Shown here: piece after piece, positions 42,174 through 43,537 of the stretch
Layout of the letters: every line of letters starts with the position of its first letter
How positions within the stretch are numbered: position 1 is the first letter of the stretch
IMG/VR virus record: IMGVR_UViG_3300045988_144790
DNA length: 45,035 nt
Reading direction: 5' to 3' (one strand)
Source: a virus
Notes under the pieces: model-generated
Database searches by the model: none
Seen by the model: only the letters and a program-made list of their open reading frames with translations
What the model was told of the DNA's origin: nothing
Position numbers and translations under genes: made by a program

Positions 42174-42244
42174 ATTTCACTAAATAAGTATTTAGCGAAA
42201 TAGGAAGGCCGGAAAGGCTGGAAAGGGTCGGCGAGCAGGGTGAG

Positions 42245-42274
42245 AGACCGACCGGCAGGGGGTCTATTTTTTTT
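42245..42274 (+). terminator. terminator after terS with a competing upstream stem
   Basis: AGACC(42245-49)/GGTCT(42261-65) + T8. The alternative stem GGTCGG(42226-31)/CCGACC(42248-53) is mutually exclusive with it. Confidence 0.5.
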
Positions 42275-42477
42275 AGAGATAGGGAGCCAGAGGGGCAAGG
42301 GGGGCAGGGAGTACCCCACCCCCCTATGAAGGGCGACCGGGGGCGAGAGGAGAGCGCAGCCCAGTACGAATATGTTCGTTCCCCCAGCGCGTTTGATTTT
42401 AAATACTACCTCCCCCCTATTGGAACTGTTGCAAATTTTGCACAGGTTCCCCAAAACAAAAATGATATAAAGTGTAT

Positions 42478-42586
42478 CACGGTACGGATGTCAGTGGCCT
42501 CCTACTGACTATGGGATTAGGGCTGTCCGTTTCAAGACCCAGCAGCCAAATATAAAGCGCTTTGCAGCAATGCAGGGCGCTTTTTT
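42478..42586 (+). ncRNA. candidate ~110-nt sRNA
   Basis: Extended -10 TGaTATAAA (42463-71). Hairpin GTCAGT-GGCCTCCT-ACTGAC (42490-42509) with a CCUCCU loop. Ends at the 42554-86 terminator. Confidence 0.3.
42554..42586 (+). terminator. intrinsic terminator with GCAA tetraloop
   Basis: GCGCTTTGCA-GCAA-TGCAGGGCGC followed by T6. Confidence 0.8.
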
Positions 42587-42589
42587 ATT

Positions 42590-43337
42590 TGCAGAATAAA
42601 CCCGCGAGGTGCGGGAACGGTTTGCTAAACCGATTGGCTGCCGATGGCGGCTGAGGTTCGCGTCCTCTGTTCTGCGTTAAAATCCTGCAATGGGGCAAAA
42701 CCTTTCCCCGCATCTGCTGGCGGGTAAGTTCAGCAGAACCGTGCCGGGTCAAGGCTGGCGCTGCCACTCCGAATGCGGCGCTATTTTATATGCTGCATAG
42801 CCAGCCGCAAACTTGGCCTGACAAGTCAATACGGCAAGGGCGCTGCGTTCCGCAAGCTACGGCGTGGCAAAGGTGCAAGACCTATGTGCAGTACCAGACG
42901 GCAGGGTCGCAACCTGTCTGTGTGAGAGTGCGCGGTATACCTCACAAATGATGACAATGGTCGTGCAAACGGCAAGCCGCACATGCCCTTGTAGCTCAAT
43001 GGCAAGAGCCTTGGAGTGCCGGTTCAAGTCCGGTCAAGGGCAAGCATTGCTCATCTGGTAGAAATGCTGGGTCGCTCCCACCGGTGAAAGCCCGGCGTAG
43101 GCAAAATACGATAAATCAACCTGAACGCTGTAAGCAAAGCGGCAAGCCGATACGGAGCGCGGCGCGATGGCAAGACGCAACGGGACTGTGAGAGCCTGAA
43201 AACTTTTGCCCGCACAGTGAAGTGCGAAACAAAACTTCAACCGCGGATAGGGGCGCGGGTATAAATACCGCCGAACACCGCAGGGCTGTGCGGTATACAA
43301 ATGACGCCCGCCAGCCCTGTGCGGACAATACAGGGAA
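42590..43337 (+). ncRNA. candidate large structured ncRNA territory (identity unknown)
   Basis: 750 nt with no credible ORF, insulated by convergent terminators. Many stems, internal repeats, GGCAAG x5 and an embedded tRNA-like element. Strand inferred from the tRNA-like and motif orientation. Confidence 0.3.
42985..43042 (+). ncRNA. 58-nt tRNA-like element lacking one arm
   Basis: Acceptor GCCCTTG/CAAGGGC, D-arm GCTC-AATGGCAA-GAGC, T-arm GCCGG-TTCAAGT-CCGGT and discriminator A. Only 8 nt (CTTGGAGT) sit where the anticodon arm should be. Confidence 0.6.
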
Positions 43338-43370
43338 TCAAAAAGCGTTGCGGAATTGCTACCCGCAACG
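43338..43370 (-). terminator. - strand intrinsic terminator ~170 nt downstream of the transposase stop
   Basis: On the - strand: CGTTGCGG-loop-CCGCAACG followed by CTTTTTGATT. Confidence 0.6.
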
Positions 43371-43537
43371 GGTGAGACCGGCACAGCATAAACCGGTAGG
43401 GCGGGTATGGGGAATGTTTAAAAGCGAGGTGACTAACTATTAAAAGTCAAGCCCTAAGAGCAGAAAAATATTCTGGGGAAAAATAGGCGCACGAAGATAA
43501 GCCCTCTTTCGAGTGCTGAAAAATGAAATTGTTGTAG

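What the first reader, a model, noticed from the sequence alone, without database searches (positions are those of the whole stretch)
42175..43537. A 1.36-kb ORF-free, hairpin-dense region between terS and the IS may encode large structured ncRNA(s)
**Seen in the sequence**
- No frame carries a credible gene. The longest ORF is 116 aa, is R/C/P-rich and has no RBS.
- The segment is fenced by + strand terminators (42245-74, 42554-86) and a - strand terminator (43338-70). This leaves 42590-43337 insulated from both neighbours.
- It is packed with stems:
  - AGGGGGG..CCCCCCT at 42298-42325
  - GGAACTGTTGCAAA/TTTTGCACAGGTTCC at 42422-50
  - CCCGC/GCGGG at 42601-15
  - CTGCTG/CAGCAG at 42715-37
  - AGCATT/AATGCT just 3' of the tRNA-like element
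  - CAGGGCTG (43281-88) / CAGCCCTG (43312-19)
  - GTTGCGG/CCGCAAC at 43347-69
- It has internal repeats: GCGGTATAC..CAAATGA at 42932 and 43290, and GCAAA(G)CGGCAAGCCG at 42965 and 43134.
- It contains an embedded tRNA-like element.

**Established knowledge**
The large ornate RNAs ROOL and GOLLD occur characteristically in Firmicutes prophages and next to tRNA genes.

**Inference**
This locus has that context, but I cannot confirm either consensus from memory. It could equally be a new RNA class.
Basis: partly seen in the sequence, partly recalled or inferred. Interest (0 to 1): 0.8.

Follow-up and report, generated by a model that had tools for sequence, protein, structure and literature searches.

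The report
Mosaic phage tRNA and structured-RNA array
The gene-free stretch is not a ROOL or GOLLD RNA; it is a patchwork of RNA elements in front of a gut phage's DNA-packaging gene: a real serine tRNA, two tRNA-shaped mimics and the known D12-methyl motif, which turns out to be the tail end of a much larger conserved RNA module found in well over 100 related phage contigs.

Summary
The window is a circular 44,980-bp phage contig whose nearest cellular relative is a Gemmiger MAG prophage. No credible gene lies in 42175-43537, and the region is not decayed coding sequence. Its hairpin density is not above chance; the case for RNA rests on comparison with related loci.

Contents on the + strand:
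- two family-specific conserved blocks;
- a 105-nt cloverleaf, "Block A" (42792-42896);
- a 58-nt tRNA-like element without an anticodon arm (42985-43042);
- a near-invariant "Block B" (43064-43212);
- variable hairpins;
- a full-length D12-methyl motif (RF02950; 43346-43409, 90.7 bits).

An IS110 element (43433-44980) has inserted between this leader and terL. ROOL and GOLLD do not match even at E<=10.

New here: of 142 distinct D12-methyl loci, 131 carry Block B upstream, 138 a T-loop motif and 81 Block A. This holds whatever the downstream packaging or methylase gene is. The stems covary.

Most likely (inferred): RNA cassettes co-transcribed with the late operon, cut at the tRNA-shaped elements, with Block B to D12-methyl acting on late-gene expression.

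The parts
42245..42274 (+). Terminator-like hairpin (AGACC...GGTCT) plus a T8 run after the terS-like ORF (41646-42173)
   Evidence: Read from the sequence. The scan did not flag it because its loop exceeds 8 nt. Few relatives match this stretch: 7 of 108 contigs at 42215-42254.
42296..42395 (+). Conserved non-coding block 1: a GGGGG/CCCCC hairpin with a variable loop, then the near-invariant CAGUACGAAUAUGU...UUCCCCCA
   Evidence: Aligned in 32 distinct sequences of the terS-family phages. The overlapping 60-aa ORF is not kept in frame: a 1-nt indel in L115/L092 breaks it. Found only in this phage family.
42470..42553 (+). Conserved non-coding block 2: a variable hairpin whose loop always holds CCUCC(U), plus covarying RCGGA/UCCGY and GGCYG/CRGCC helices (pseudoknot-like)
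   Evidence: 31-sequence alignment. The hairpin stem changes (GUCAG/CUGAC, AGUAAG/CUUACU, GACAG/CUGYU, GUCGG/CCGAC) while the loop motif stays. A-U changes to G-C, and C-G to U-A, in the other two helices.
42554..42589 (+). Intrinsic terminator whose U-tract abuts the 5' end of tRNA-Ser
   Evidence: Scan: 13-bp stem, 4-nt loop, T-run. Conserved in relatives.
42590..42677 (+). tRNA-Ser(GCU) gene, class II with a long variable arm, no encoded CCA
   Evidence: ARAGORN. Cloverleaf MFE -39.9 kcal/mol, z = -3.4. ARAGORN calls the same tRNA-Ser(gct) at the matching position in 13 of the 30 related loci scanned. The cassette is absent from other relatives, where 42598 joins about 42777 through a ~22-nt repeated terminator tail.
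42678..42791 (+). Trailer of the tRNA-Ser cassette, ending in a terminator-like hairpin (GCGCTGC 42758-64 / GCGGCGC 42775-81) and TATTTTATAT
   Evidence: Sequence. Moves with the cassette among loci.
42792..42896 (+). Block A: a 105-nt cloverleaf-shaped RNA domain. It has a closing stem, a variable arm 1, arm 2, a T-arm-like GGUGCAAGACC, and a 3' tail UACCA.
   Evidence: 61 distinct sequences (A3): 26 consensus pairs, 8 with compensatory changes. Arm 1 occurs in about 5 non-homologous hairpin versions at the same site. U-G, U-A and C-G alternate in arm 2. The tail ends in ACCA in 59 of 61. No Rfam match. Present upstream of 81 of 142 distinct D12-methyl loci.
42897..42984 (+). Three short hairpins between Block A and the tRNA-like element: about 42895-42921, 42922-42946 (GUGAG..CUCAC) and 42963-42982
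   Evidence: Alignment A2. GU/AC changes to GG/CC inside the second hairpin. Some relatives carry an unrelated structured segment here instead.
42985..43042 (+). 58-nt tRNA-like element with acceptor stem, D arm and T arm; the anticodon arm is replaced by a few nucleotides
   Evidence: Rfam tRNA 45.7 bits with 18 model positions replaced by 3 nt. ARAGORN does not call it. MFE -27 kcal/mol, z = -3.2. The same element is seen in 32 of 99 distinct contexts; the other contexts hold true tRNAs or other tRNA-shaped elements at exactly this slot.
43043..43063 (+). About 21-nt insertion (AGCATTGCTCATCTGGTAGAA) between the tRNA-like element and Block B
   Evidence: Among the 84 aligned sequences, present only in the window and L015; L101 has an unrelated 8-nt fill.
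43064..43212 (+). Block B: a near-invariant non-coding block that starts 3-5 nt after the tRNA(-like) 3' end. Its 3' half is a paralogue of D12-methyl P1 and linker (GCGG..CGCAACGGGAC..GAGAGCC).
   Evidence: Column conservation 0.86-0.96 across 43064-43143 in 98 sequences. The core motif occurs in at least 119 viral contigs, nearly always with D12-methyl 160-311 nt downstream. It lies upstream of 131 of 142 distinct D12-methyl loci. 1-nt and 2-nt indels show it is non-coding. A divergent copy keeps the CCGG/CCGG hairpin as UCCG/CGGA. The paralogy to D12-methyl is repeat D1.
43213..43345 (+). Variable linker of hairpins
   Evidence: Several non-homologous versions occur among loci. In the window, 43206-17 is 92% complementary to 43317-28, and CCCUGU/ACAGGG forms a hairpin at 43314-43334.
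43346..43409 (+). D12-methyl RNA motif (Rfam RF02950), full length
   Evidence: 90.7 bits against a gathering score of 57, model positions 1-64. Present in all 13 relatives scanned. In 108 distinct sequences both hairpins covary: P2 outer pair A-U 68, G-C 26, C-G 11; next pair C-G 82, U-A 24; P1 GG:CC 72, AG:CU 7, AA:UU 9.
43410..43432 (+). Remnant of the terL leader, including the Shine-Dalgarno-like GAGGTGA
   Evidence: In L001 and L015 this runs straight into GTGATAGTTTG, the terL start.
43433..44980 (-). IS110-family insertion sequence (transposase ORF 43538-44782), flanked by GTGA on both sides
   Evidence: Pfam DEDD_Tnp_IS110 (3.9e-36) and Transposase_20 (2.5e-22). Empty site in L001 and L015. 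Not part of the RNA array; it interrupts it.
44981..45035 (+). 5' end of terL (TTG at 44989, equal to position 9); identical to window 1-55 because the contig is circular
   Evidence: 55-bp terminal direct repeat. The large terminase subunit is supported by Pfam and PHROG hits.

Best explanation
The ORF-free region is a mosaic array of RNA cassettes sitting in the leader of the phage's packaging (late) genes, on the same strand as them.

**Shown**
- It holds one functional-looking tRNA-Ser(GCU).
- It holds two tRNA-shaped but non-decoding elements: the Block A cloverleaf ending in ACCA, and a 58-nt tRNA-like element without an anticodon arm.
- It holds a conserved 3' unit made of Block B, a variable hairpin linker and the D12-methyl motif.
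- That 3' unit begins 3-5 nt after the 3' end of a tRNA or tRNA-shaped element. In the ancestral state it ends about 30 nt before the terL start.
- The same unit occurs in well over 100 distinct gut-phage contigs, in front of five different kinds of late or packaging genes.
- In this contig an IS110 element has since inserted between it and terL.

**Inferred**
- The cassettes are transcribed with, or read through into, the late operon.
- The elements with an acceptor stem and T arm serve as RNase P / RNase Z processing signals. They release the tRNA and define the 5' end of the Block B to D12-methyl RNA.
- That RNA then acts locally on late-gene expression. The most likely action is on passage of RNA polymerase through terminators (leader or antitermination type). 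Control of the stability or translation of the first late gene is less likely.

I put the anatomy and family assignments at about 0.85, the processing step at about 0.5, and the specific cis-antitermination role at about 0.25.
For: **Identity of the parts**
- tRNA-Ser by ARAGORN, with a strongly stable fold.
- tRNA-like element and D12-methyl above Rfam gathering scores.
- IS110 domains, plus an empty site in close relatives.

**Modularity**
- Cassettes are independently present or absent among 30 terS-related loci. tRNAs (Ser, Asp, Trp, Thr) and small ORFs are interleaved with them.

**Coupling**
- 131 of 142 distinct D12-methyl loci have Block B upstream, 138 have a T-loop motif within 700 nt, and 81 have Block A.
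- The slot just 5' of Block B holds the mini tRNA-like element (32 contexts), ARAGORN-called tRNAs (20) or other elements with an acceptor stem and T arm (47), out of 99 distinct contexts.
- In L071 a tRNA abuts D12-methyl directly.

**RNA-level selection**
- The non-coding blocks are 75-98% identical while the adjacent terS is about 69%.
- 98.6% of cells are paired, against 33-41% when partners are slid. 23 pairs change on both sides, against 13.5 +/- 1.5 in shuffles (0 of 500).
- D12-methyl and Block A covary.
- G-U cells 446 against A-C cells 15, and a lower consensus energy on the + strand.

**Position**
- The unit always lies upstream of, and co-oriented with, late genes: TerL, TerS (GP3_package) with Terminase_3, ParB_N, a D12 methyltransferase, or an SPP1-type portal. 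It often follows an HNH / Dam / DUF1492-type regulator block.
- In the major class D12-methyl is followed by a conserved intrinsic terminator and then the ribosome-binding site of the first late gene.
Against: - There are no expression data. Transcription, processing and any cis effect are all inferred.
- Hairpin-plus-U-tract elements sit immediately 5' of tRNA-Ser, Block A and, in many relatives, the tRNA-like element. If they terminate efficiently, the cassettes need promoters of their own, and I could not find any.
- Block B is almost invariant, so its predicted fold has little covariation support: the two Block B helices have no pair with a change on both sides.
- The window's phage family lacks the terminator that follows D12-methyl in the major class.
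- Part of the high identity between phages could reflect recent exchange of modules rather than purifying selection.
- The structure that was tested was derived from the same alignment, which inflates the paired percentage (caveat).
Confidence: 0.6

Rival explanations
1. Block A through D12-methyl (42792-43409, about 620 nt) is one large, ornate, stable non-coding RNA of a new class. Like GOLLD and ROOL it would act in trans, for example as a scaffold or an oligomeric particle, with the tRNA or tRNA-like element as an embedded domain rather than a cleavage signal.
For: - The fixed Block A to Block B spacing of 192 nt is the commonest arrangement (39 loci; 212 nt in the window).
- In the 42 collinear sequences the whole span aligns as an unbroken series of covarying helices.
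- The architecture parallels GOLLD: a conserved 3' region, a variable 5' region and tRNAs in the linker (PMC12286853).
- In the major class the unit is bracketed by a terminator upstream and another downstream.
- Repeated motifs shared between distant parts could be tertiary or protein contacts (repeats D1, D3 and D6).
Against: - No match to the ROOL or GOLLD models.
- Domains are lost independently: 55 of the 131 loci with Block B lack Block A, and a few D12-methyl loci lack Block B.
- Protein-coding cassettes of 0.4-0.7 kb lie between Block A and Block B in several relatives.
- The only candidate long-range helix (TTGCCC 43206-11 with GGGCGG 43398-403) is kept only through wobble pairs, and variants of the tail are not compensated.
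- Thermodynamic z-scores are weak.
Confidence: 0.2
2. The conservation is at the DNA level: a packaging site (pac or cos), or the late promoter with binding sites for the late activator, placed where such sites usually lie in front of the terminase genes.
For: - The unit sits immediately upstream of terminase or portal genes and downstream of DUF1492-type regulator genes.
- An ATAAAT or TATAAAT motif lies 11-18 nt upstream of D12-methyl P1 in 29 of 84 distinct upstream sequences. One linker version has TTGTGA about 15-16 nt before it.
- Block B is near-invariant, so it gives no covariation evidence either way.
Against: - The same module precedes non-homologous small-terminase systems (a DUF5681-like protein, GP3_package, others) and even a portal gene. 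Packaging sites are specific to their terminase.
- The stems covary through G-U intermediates with strong strand asymmetry: 446 G-U cells against 15 A-C cells.
- D12-methyl scores 90.7 bits on the + strand and 16 on the - strand.
- Whole hairpins are replaced by unrelated hairpins at the same positions.
- The -10-like motif is absent from most linker versions.
Confidence: 0.08
3. The region is mostly debris: a decaying phage tRNA array and recombination scars in a hot spot for cargo insertion. Only the tRNA-Ser and perhaps D12-methyl would be functional.
For: - The zone is a mosaic hot spot holding tRNAs, small inserted accessory ORFs and an IS.
- Cassette junctions share about 22-nt repeated terminator tails.
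- Several tRNA-shaped elements look like damaged tRNAs.
Against: - Block B is conserved far above the neighbouring coding sequence in more than 100 distinct contigs.
- The element without an anticodon arm is kept intact in 32 distinct contexts.
- Block A keeps its junction nucleotides, stems and ACCA tail while one arm is swapped.
- Changes in the stems are compensatory.
Confidence: 0.08
4. The region is a decayed protein-coding gene or genes.
For: Relatives carry ORFs of 58-146 aa within the terS to terL interval.
Against: - Those ORFs are insertions between the conserved RNA blocks.
- tblastn of them against the window finds nothing. The one exception is an ORF that merely reads through D12-methyl.
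- Indels that are not multiples of three occur in the conserved blocks.
Confidence: 0.02

Closest known systems
D12-methyl RNA motif (Rfam RF02950; from the 224-motif survey of Weinberg et al. 2017, PMC5737381)
   Same: - 43346-43409 matches the whole 64-nt model at 90.7 bits.
- Both hairpins covary in 108 distinct homologues.
- Some relatives (L043, L109) have it directly upstream of a D12-class DNA methyltransferase, the context that gave the motif its name.
   Different: - In this window the gene downstream is terL, now separated from the motif by an IS110 element.
- The motif is not a stand-alone 64-nt element. In about 92% of distinct loci it is the 3' end of a longer conserved unit: a tRNA or tRNA-like element, then Block B, then a linker. 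None of that is in the Rfam model.
- In the commonest class it is followed by a further hairpin and an intrinsic terminator.
GOLLD RNA (Rfam RF01998)
   Same: - Encoded by phages or prophages, next to tRNA genes.
- A conserved 3' region and a variable 5' region, with tRNAs sometimes inside the linker (PMC12286853).
- Here too there is a conserved 3' core, variable 5' domains and a tRNA or tRNA-like element in between.
   Different: - No covariance-model match even at E<=10.
- Shorter: about 0.35-0.65 kb, against more than 0.8 kb.
- The domains are separable and sometimes interrupted by ORFs.
- There is no evidence of a single folded particle or an oligomer.
ROOL RNA (Rfam RF03087)
   Same: - Phage or prophage context near tRNA islands.
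- Size in the same range, about 0.6 kb (PMC5737381 and PMC12286853).
   Different: - No model match.
- No sign of the ROOL multi-pseudoknot consensus.
tRNA-like processing signals: mascRNA at the 3' end of MALAT1, tRNA punctuation of polycistronic transcripts, and bacterial tRNA-mRNA co-transcripts such as the tufB operon (own knowledge)
   Same: An element with an acceptor stem and T arm but no decoding capacity sits exactly at the boundary of another RNA. RNase P or RNase Z cleavage there would define that RNA's end.
   Different: - Cleavage has not been shown here.
- The element is bacterial and phage-borne, lacks the anticodon arm entirely, and can be exchanged for true tRNAs at the same slot.
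put RNA of phage HK022, and the lambda pR'-qut-tR' (6S RNA) late leader (own knowledge)
   Same: - A short, conserved two-hairpin RNA lies in the leader of a phage operon, upstream of terminators and of the late genes.
- In the major class D12-methyl is followed within about 60 nt by an intrinsic terminator and then the first late gene.
   Different: - No sequence relationship.
- Antitermination has not been tested.
- The window's own phage family lacks the immediately downstream terminator.

Membership tests
ROOL (RF03087) | Match to the Rfam covariance model at or near its gathering score | tested here: not met
   No hit on the whole window at gathering thresholds. No hit at E<=10 with permissive filters on 41400-43700. 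None on relative L045 at E<=5.
GOLLD (RF01998) | Match to the Rfam covariance model (the conserved 3' domain) | tested here: not met
   No hit.
GOLLD (RF01998) | Architecture: conserved 3' region, variable 5' region, tRNA in the linker, phage context | tested here: met
   The resemblance holds (description in PMC12286853). This is a likeness, not membership, because the model test fails.
D12-methyl RNA (RF02950) | Full-length match above the gathering score (57 bits) | tested here: met
   90.7 bits, E = 1.7e-15, model positions 1-64, + strand. 80.6-90.9 bits in 13 relatives.
D12-methyl RNA (RF02950) | Two hairpins supported by covariation, with a conserved linker and 3' tail | tested here: met
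   108 distinct sequences. P2: A-U 68, G-C 26, C-G 11 at the outer pair; C-G 82, U-A 24 at the next. P1: GG:CC 72, AG:CU 7, AA:UU 9. More than 98% of cells are paired at every P2 position.
D12-methyl RNA (RF02950) | Location upstream of a D12-class N6-adenine DNA methyltransferase gene | tested here: not met
   In the window the next gene was terL, now behind an IS110 element. The named context does occur in relatives L043, L109, L123 and L129. This is an association, not a structural criterion.
tRNA (functional), for 42590-42677 | Cloverleaf with anticodon loop, recognised by a tRNA finder; long variable arm for Ser | tested here: met
   ARAGORN calls tRNA-Ser(gct). The class II cloverleaf is the MFE structure, z = -3.4. 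Conserved in relatives. Rfam tRNA-Sec 41 bits is the clan-best hit, below its own cut-off.
tRNA (functional), for 42985-43042 | Presence of an anticodon arm | tested here: not met
   The Rfam tRNA model aligns at 45.7 bits, but 18 model positions (the anticodon arm) are replaced by 3 nt. ARAGORN does not call it. It is tRNA-like, not a tRNA.
IS110 family insertion sequence | DEDD transposase with DEDD_Tnp_IS110 and Transposase_20 domains, and an empty site in relatives | tested here: met
   Pfam E-values 3.9e-36 and 2.5e-22. L001 and L015 join 43432 to 44981 with a shared GTGA.
put-type cis-acting antiterminator RNA | Acts in cis on the transcribing RNA polymerase to suppress downstream terminators | not testable with these tools
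   Only the layout could be examined: a two-hairpin RNA, then a terminator, then late genes in the major class.

The most novel reading that the evidence does not exclude
Block A through D12-methyl, or at least the tRNA-like element through D12-methyl, is a new class of large modular phage RNA. It would be the third such class after GOLLD and ROOL, with an embedded and exchangeable tRNA or tRNA mimic. The catalogued 64-nt D12-methyl motif would be only its conserved 3' domain. It would work either as a folded particle or as an RNA device that switches on the phage late operon.
Probability: 0.25. Interest if true: 0.8.

Novelty: new variant of a known kind. Interest (0 to 1): 0.6.

Why it matters
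- **An orphan motif gets a context.** D12-methyl is catalogued in Rfam with no experimentally established function that I could find. This analysis places it at the boundary of the late (packaging) genes, at the 3' end of a longer conserved RNA that always follows a tRNA-shaped element. That yields concrete, testable hypotheses: processing by RNase P and RNase Z, and control of late-operon read-through.
- **A family of tRNA mimics.** The locus reveals tRNA mimics that keep the acceptor stem and T arm but have lost the anticodon arm. This points to selection for tRNA shape rather than decoding in gut phages.
- **A possible new large phage RNA.** If the module proves to be a single large RNA, it would extend the small set of large phage RNAs associated with tRNAs (GOLLD, ROOL), whose biology is still unknown.
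- **Annotation.** More than 100 gut-phage contigs carry 0.4-1.4 kb of "empty" sequence here that can now be labelled.

Tried and rejected
- **Cultured-phage GenBank records.** A distant-mode DNA search with the region found no match.
- **ROOL, GOLLD or any other Rfam family** for Blocks A, B, 1 and 2. Nothing at E<=10.
- **Group II intron.** The weak group-II-D1D4-4 hit (23 bits, E = 0.018 in the window; 13 bits in L045) is far below the 49-bit cut-off, and no domain V/VI hit accompanies it. I treat it as chance.
- **A small protein from ORF 42326-42508** ('..SAAQYEYVRSPS..'). Rejected: a 1-nt indel breaks the frame from the ATG, and the conservation is at the nucleotide level.
- **Decayed copies of relatives' small ORFs.** No tblastn signal.
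- **A late promoter directly upstream of D12-methyl.** An ATAAAT-type -10 motif is present in only 30 of 84 distinct upstream sequences, so it cannot be a general feature.
- **A long-range helix between the end of Block B and the D12-methyl tail** (TTGCCC with GGGCGG in the window). It is kept only through G-U wobble, and tail variants (GUGCGG, GGGAGG) are not compensated, so I did not count it as shown.
- **Hairpin density as evidence.** Single-sequence folding z-scores are mostly unremarkable.
- **Literature on D12-methyl.** No paper in the library holds the term. The main text of the discovery paper does not discuss it, and its supplements are not held.
- **Host.** One exact-pattern scan of GTDB species representatives gave a single hit, in an uncultured Gemmiger MAG.
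Full report
**Setting**

The window carries a 55-bp terminal direct repeat, so it is a circular contig of 44,980 bp. It has a phage gene set.
- A large terminase subunit at 9-1499 (Terminase_6N; PHROG 'terminase large subunit').
- An integrase at 36315-37385.
- An HTH repressor-like gene.

The ORF just upstream of the finding (41646-42173) is only weakly DUF5681-like: E = 0.005, below the cut-off. 'terS' is therefore a plausible label but not a verified one. In species-representative genomes, an exact D12-methyl pattern hit only one record, an uncultured Gemmiger MAG. The cultured-phage collection has no similar DNA.

**Checking the observation**

The region 42175-43537 has no credible ORF; the longest is 116 aa on the - strand.

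Hairpin and terminator density is not in itself unusual.
- Terminator-like sites: 4 found, against 2.9 +/- 1.9 in shuffles.
- Folding z-scores: -1.8 for 43043-43426 on the + strand, -2.7 for its reverse complement, and -0.06 for 42784-42984.

- The 'CCCGC/GCGGG stem' is the D arm of a tRNA-Ser(GCU) gene at 42590-42677. ARAGORN calls it, and its class II cloverleaf is the minimum-energy fold with z = -3.4.
- The 'embedded tRNA-like element' is confirmed at 42985-43042. It scores 45.7 bits against the Rfam tRNA model, with the anticodon arm replaced by 3 nt, and z = -3.2.
- The '- strand terminator' at 43338-70 is hairpin P1 of a + strand D12-methyl motif (RF02950) at 43346-43409. That motif scores 90.7 bits against a 57-bit threshold.
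- ROOL and GOLLD do not match, even at E<=10 with permissive filters.

**The right-hand boundary**

Two close relatives, L001 and L015, join window 43432 directly to 44981 with a shared GTGA. So 43433-44980 is an IS110-family insertion; the transposase domains are. Before the insertion, the D12-methyl motif was followed by ..GGGGAATGTTTAAAAGCGAGGTGATAGTTTG, that is, a Shine-Dalgarno-like sequence and the terL start codon. The ancestral region is therefore the whole interval from the terS-like gene to terL.

**Related loci**

The terS-like protein retrieved 30 IMG/VR loci. In them the terS to terL interval is 1.6-2.7 kb and mosaic.
- The conserved non-coding blocks recur: 42296-42395, 42470-42589, 42777-42896, 43063-43212 and 43346-43419.
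- Between these blocks lie cassettes that come and go: tRNA-Ser(GCU), tRNA-Asp, tRNA-Trp, tRNA-Thr, odd 84-86-nt tRNAs, tRNA-like elements, and small ORFs of 58-146 aa.
- The non-coding blocks are 75-98% identical, while the terS coding sequence is about 69% identical.
- The window holds no remnants of the relatives' small ORFs.
- Indels of 1-2 nt occur inside the conserved blocks. The 'decayed CDS' reading therefore fails.

**The wider family**

The two elements are tightly coupled. Nearly every Block B with enough downstream sequence has a D12-methyl variant 160-311 nt further on.

Among 142 distinct D12-methyl loci with at least 900 nt of upstream sequence:
- 131 have Block B by a strict motif, and three more have a divergent Block B;
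- 81 have Block A;
- 138 have a T-loop motif within 700 nt.

The downstream genes differ from class to class:
- this window's TerL family;
- a GP3_package small terminase followed by a Terminase_3 TerL;
- ParB_N proteins;
- a D12-class methyltransferase;
- an SPP1-type portal, in a locus where a T7-like TerL lies upstream.

In the commonest class the genes upstream are an HNH endonuclease, a Dam methylase, and a 129-aa protein of unknown family (no Pfam hit) or a DUF1492 protein. The module therefore marks the start of, or a junction within, the packaging/late gene block. It is not tied to any one gene.

**Anatomy and evidence for RNA structure**

*D12-methyl.* In 108 distinct sequences:
- the outer pair of P2 is A-U in 68, G-C in 26 and C-G in 11;
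- the next pair is C-G in 82 and U-A in 24;
- the inner pairs of P1 are GG:CC in 72, AG:CU in 7, AA:UU in 9 and GG:CU in 7.

*Block A (42792-42896).* In 61 distinct sequences it folds as a cloverleaf with 26 consensus pairs, 8 of them with compensatory changes.
- One arm occurs in about five unrelated hairpin versions at the same site.
- Arm 2 alternates U-G, U-A and C-G.
- There is a T-arm-like GGUGCAAGACC.
- The 3' tail ends in ACCA in 59 of 61.

*The slot immediately 5' of Block B.* It always holds a tRNA-shaped element. Among 99 distinct contexts there are 32 copies of the 58-nt element, 20 tRNAs called by ARAGORN, and 47 other elements of 63-72 nt that have an acceptor stem and T arm but degenerate anticodon regions. 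Several of these score 42-45 bits against the Rfam tRNA model. Block B begins 3-5 nt after the discriminator position. In L071 a tRNA abuts D12-methyl directly.

*Block B.* It is nearly invariant, with column conservation of 0.86-0.96 over its first 80 nt. Its predicted irregular hairpin (GUCGC/GCGAU, CCC/GGG, CCGG/CCGG) therefore has almost no covariation support. The one exception is a divergent copy in which CCGG/CCGG becomes UCCG/CGGA. Its 3' half is a paralogue of D12-methyl P1 plus linker (repeat D1).

*The whole span.* On the 42-sequence collinear alignment (A2), RNAalifold predicts 99 pairs, 24 of them with compensatory changes. For 97 of these pairs:
- 98.6% of cells are paired, against 33-41% when partners are slid by 1-3 columns;
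- 23 pairs change on both sides, against 13.5 +/- 1.5 in shuffles (0 of 500);
- 140 cells change on both sides, against 34.8.

The structure was derived from the same alignment, so the paired percentage is biased upward.

*Strand.* G-U cells number 446 and A-C cells 15. The consensus energy is -101 kcal/mol on the + strand and -90 on the - strand. The tRNAs and D12-methyl are all on the + strand.

*Blocks 1 and 2 (42296-42395 and 42470-42553).* These are specific to this phage family. Block 2 has a hairpin whose stem varies while its loop keeps CCUCC(U), plus two covarying helices arranged like a pseudoknot.

**One RNA or several?**

Evidence for several:
- 55 of the 131 loci with Block B lack Block A;
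- a few D12-methyl loci lack Block B;
- ORF cassettes of 0.4-0.7 kb separate Block A from Block B in some relatives;
- hairpin-plus-U-tract elements separate the cassettes.

Evidence for one:
- the commonest arrangement has a fixed Block A to Block B spacing of 192 nt (39 loci; 212 nt in the window because of a 21-nt insertion);
- in the major class the unit is bracketed by terminators.

The only candidate long-range helix is kept by wobble pairs only. I therefore favour an array of semi-independent modules, and I keep the single-RNA reading as the main rival.

**Mechanism**

*Shown:* the parts, their order, their strand, their conservation and covariation, and their constant position in front of late genes.

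*Inferred:*
1. The array is co-transcribed with, or read through into, the late operon.
2. The elements with an acceptor stem and T arm are kept because they are substrates for RNase P and RNase Z (own knowledge: the acceptor/T-arm minihelix is the determinant for those enzymes). This explains three things: why decoding capacity is dispensable, why true tRNAs and mimics are interchangeable at one slot, and why the 5' edge of Block B is so sharply defined.
3. The released Block B to D12-methyl RNA, or leader, acts on late-gene expression.

In the major class, D12-methyl is followed by a GCGC hairpin with a CCUCC loop. Next come a conserved intrinsic terminator (CCUACACAAAUUGUGUGGGCUUUUUGUG) and the ribosome-binding site of the first late gene. 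This layout recalls the put element of HK022 and the pR'-tR' leader of lambda (own knowledge). I give the cis-antitermination idea only about 0.25. The window's own family lacks that terminator, and no promoter could be defined: the -10-like motif upstream of P1 is present in only 30 of 84 versions.

**Comparison with known families**

- Member of the tRNA family: 42590-42677.
- Member of D12-methyl: 43346-43409.
- tRNA-like but not a tRNA: 42985-43042.
- Not ROOL and not GOLLD. The architecture does resemble GOLLD as described in PMC12286853: a conserved 3' region, a variable 5' region and tRNAs in the linker.
- Blocks A, B, 1 and 2 match nothing in Rfam 15.
- I found no paper in the library that mentions D12-methyl by name. 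The discovery paper's main text does not discuss it.

**Verdict**

There is structured non-coding RNA here, and much of it is uncatalogued. But it is a mosaic of cassettes that includes two known families, not a ROOL or GOLLD RNA and not one insulated 748-nt transcript.

The most useful result is that the catalogued D12-methyl motif is the 3' end of a larger module that follows a tRNA or tRNA mimic and is widespread in gut phages, at the head of their packaging genes.

Interest is 0.6: a solid computational lead with clear experiments, but with no expression or functional data.

Noticed in passing
window 39732-39816 (-): Full-length twister-sister ribozyme (RF02681; 78.8 bits against a 34-bit cut-off), lying among - strand genes about 2.4 kb upstream of the finding. 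Relatives L003, L018 and L020 instead have RAGATH-5 hits (51-53 bits) about 2 kb upstream of their terS-like gene.
   Followed up: no
window 43429-43432 and 44981-44984 (GTGA); IS at 43433-44980: The IS110 insertion lies between the Shine-Dalgarno-like GAGGTGA and the terL TTG start (44989, equal to position 9). terL now follows ..TTATTATACGTGATAGTTTG. Translation of terL, and hence viability of this phage copy, may be impaired.
   Followed up: partly
window 44783-44980 (-): About 200 nt of non-coding sequence upstream of the IS110 transposase. In IS110-family elements the bridge RNA is encoded in this position (own knowledge). Rfam gave no hit at gathering thresholds, and I did not examine it further.
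   Followed up: no
window 41470-41632 (+): A strong sigma-70-like promoter match (TTGACA, 17 nt, TAAAAT; 11 of 12). It is followed by a ~60-nt near-perfect palindrome (41500-41560) and an intrinsic terminator (41594-41622), just upstream of the terS-like ORF. The layout is promoter, leader, terminator. Rfam gives only a weak trpB-motif hit (28 bits).
   Followed up: no
window 1-55 and 44981-45035: A 55-bp exact terminal direct repeat shows that the contig is circular, with a true length of 44,980 bp. terL spans the junction region.
   Followed up: yes
window 42493-42502 (loop of the block 2 hairpin); the hairpin after D12-methyl in L036, L045 and other loci: Loops that keep the anti-Shine-Dalgarno-like CCUCC(U) while their stems change. 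A second CCUCC loop (GCGC-UUUUCCUCCG-GCGC) follows D12-methyl in the major class, with GGAGG or GGGGG about 15 nt downstream. This may be RBS mimicry or sequestration.
   Followed up: partly
window 43156-43184 compared with 43344-43372: The 3' half of Block B is a 72%-identical paralogue of D12-methyl P1 and linker: GCGG..CGCAACGGGAC..GAGAGCC against GCGG..CCGCAACGGGUGAGACC. This suggests an internal duplication or a repeated binding site.
   Followed up: partly
L007 3262-3330, L017 2168-2236, L018 5136-5204, L023 7949-8017; L012 2938-3021, L016 7713-7798, L025 7950-8035: Families of non-canonical tRNA-shaped genes in relatives. One is a 69-72-nt type with an encoded CCA and a 4-bp 'anticodon' stem lacking U33. 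Another is an 84-86-nt type that ARAGORN calls tRNA-His(atg). Both sit at the slot just 5' of Block B.
   Followed up: partly
L008 7043-7312, L018 4227-4493, L003 6762-6938, L016 7125-7565, L007 2764-3057: Small conserved protein cassettes inserted between the RNA blocks in relatives: an 88-89-aa MKELRDTIQDMTSDDYK.. protein, a 58-aa MERQKYNADN.. protein, and 146-aa and 97-aa ORFs. Their functions are unknown.
   Followed up: no
window 41261-41458 (+): A 65-aa ORF with a borderline TacA1-like antitoxin (ribbon-helix-helix) match (E = 2.7e-4) and a PHROG 13890 match, just upstream of the RNA-rich region. TacA antitoxins pair with tRNA-acetylating toxins (own knowledge). I saw no toxin gene next to it.
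   Followed up: no
L002 7670-7828, L003 7961-8119 and about 10 other loci: In many relatives a conserved ~155-nt segment, which can be read as a 52-aa ORF (MDCRFDFEIYWKSF..), lies between D12-methyl and terL. This is the same junction where the IS110 inserted in the window.
   Followed up: no
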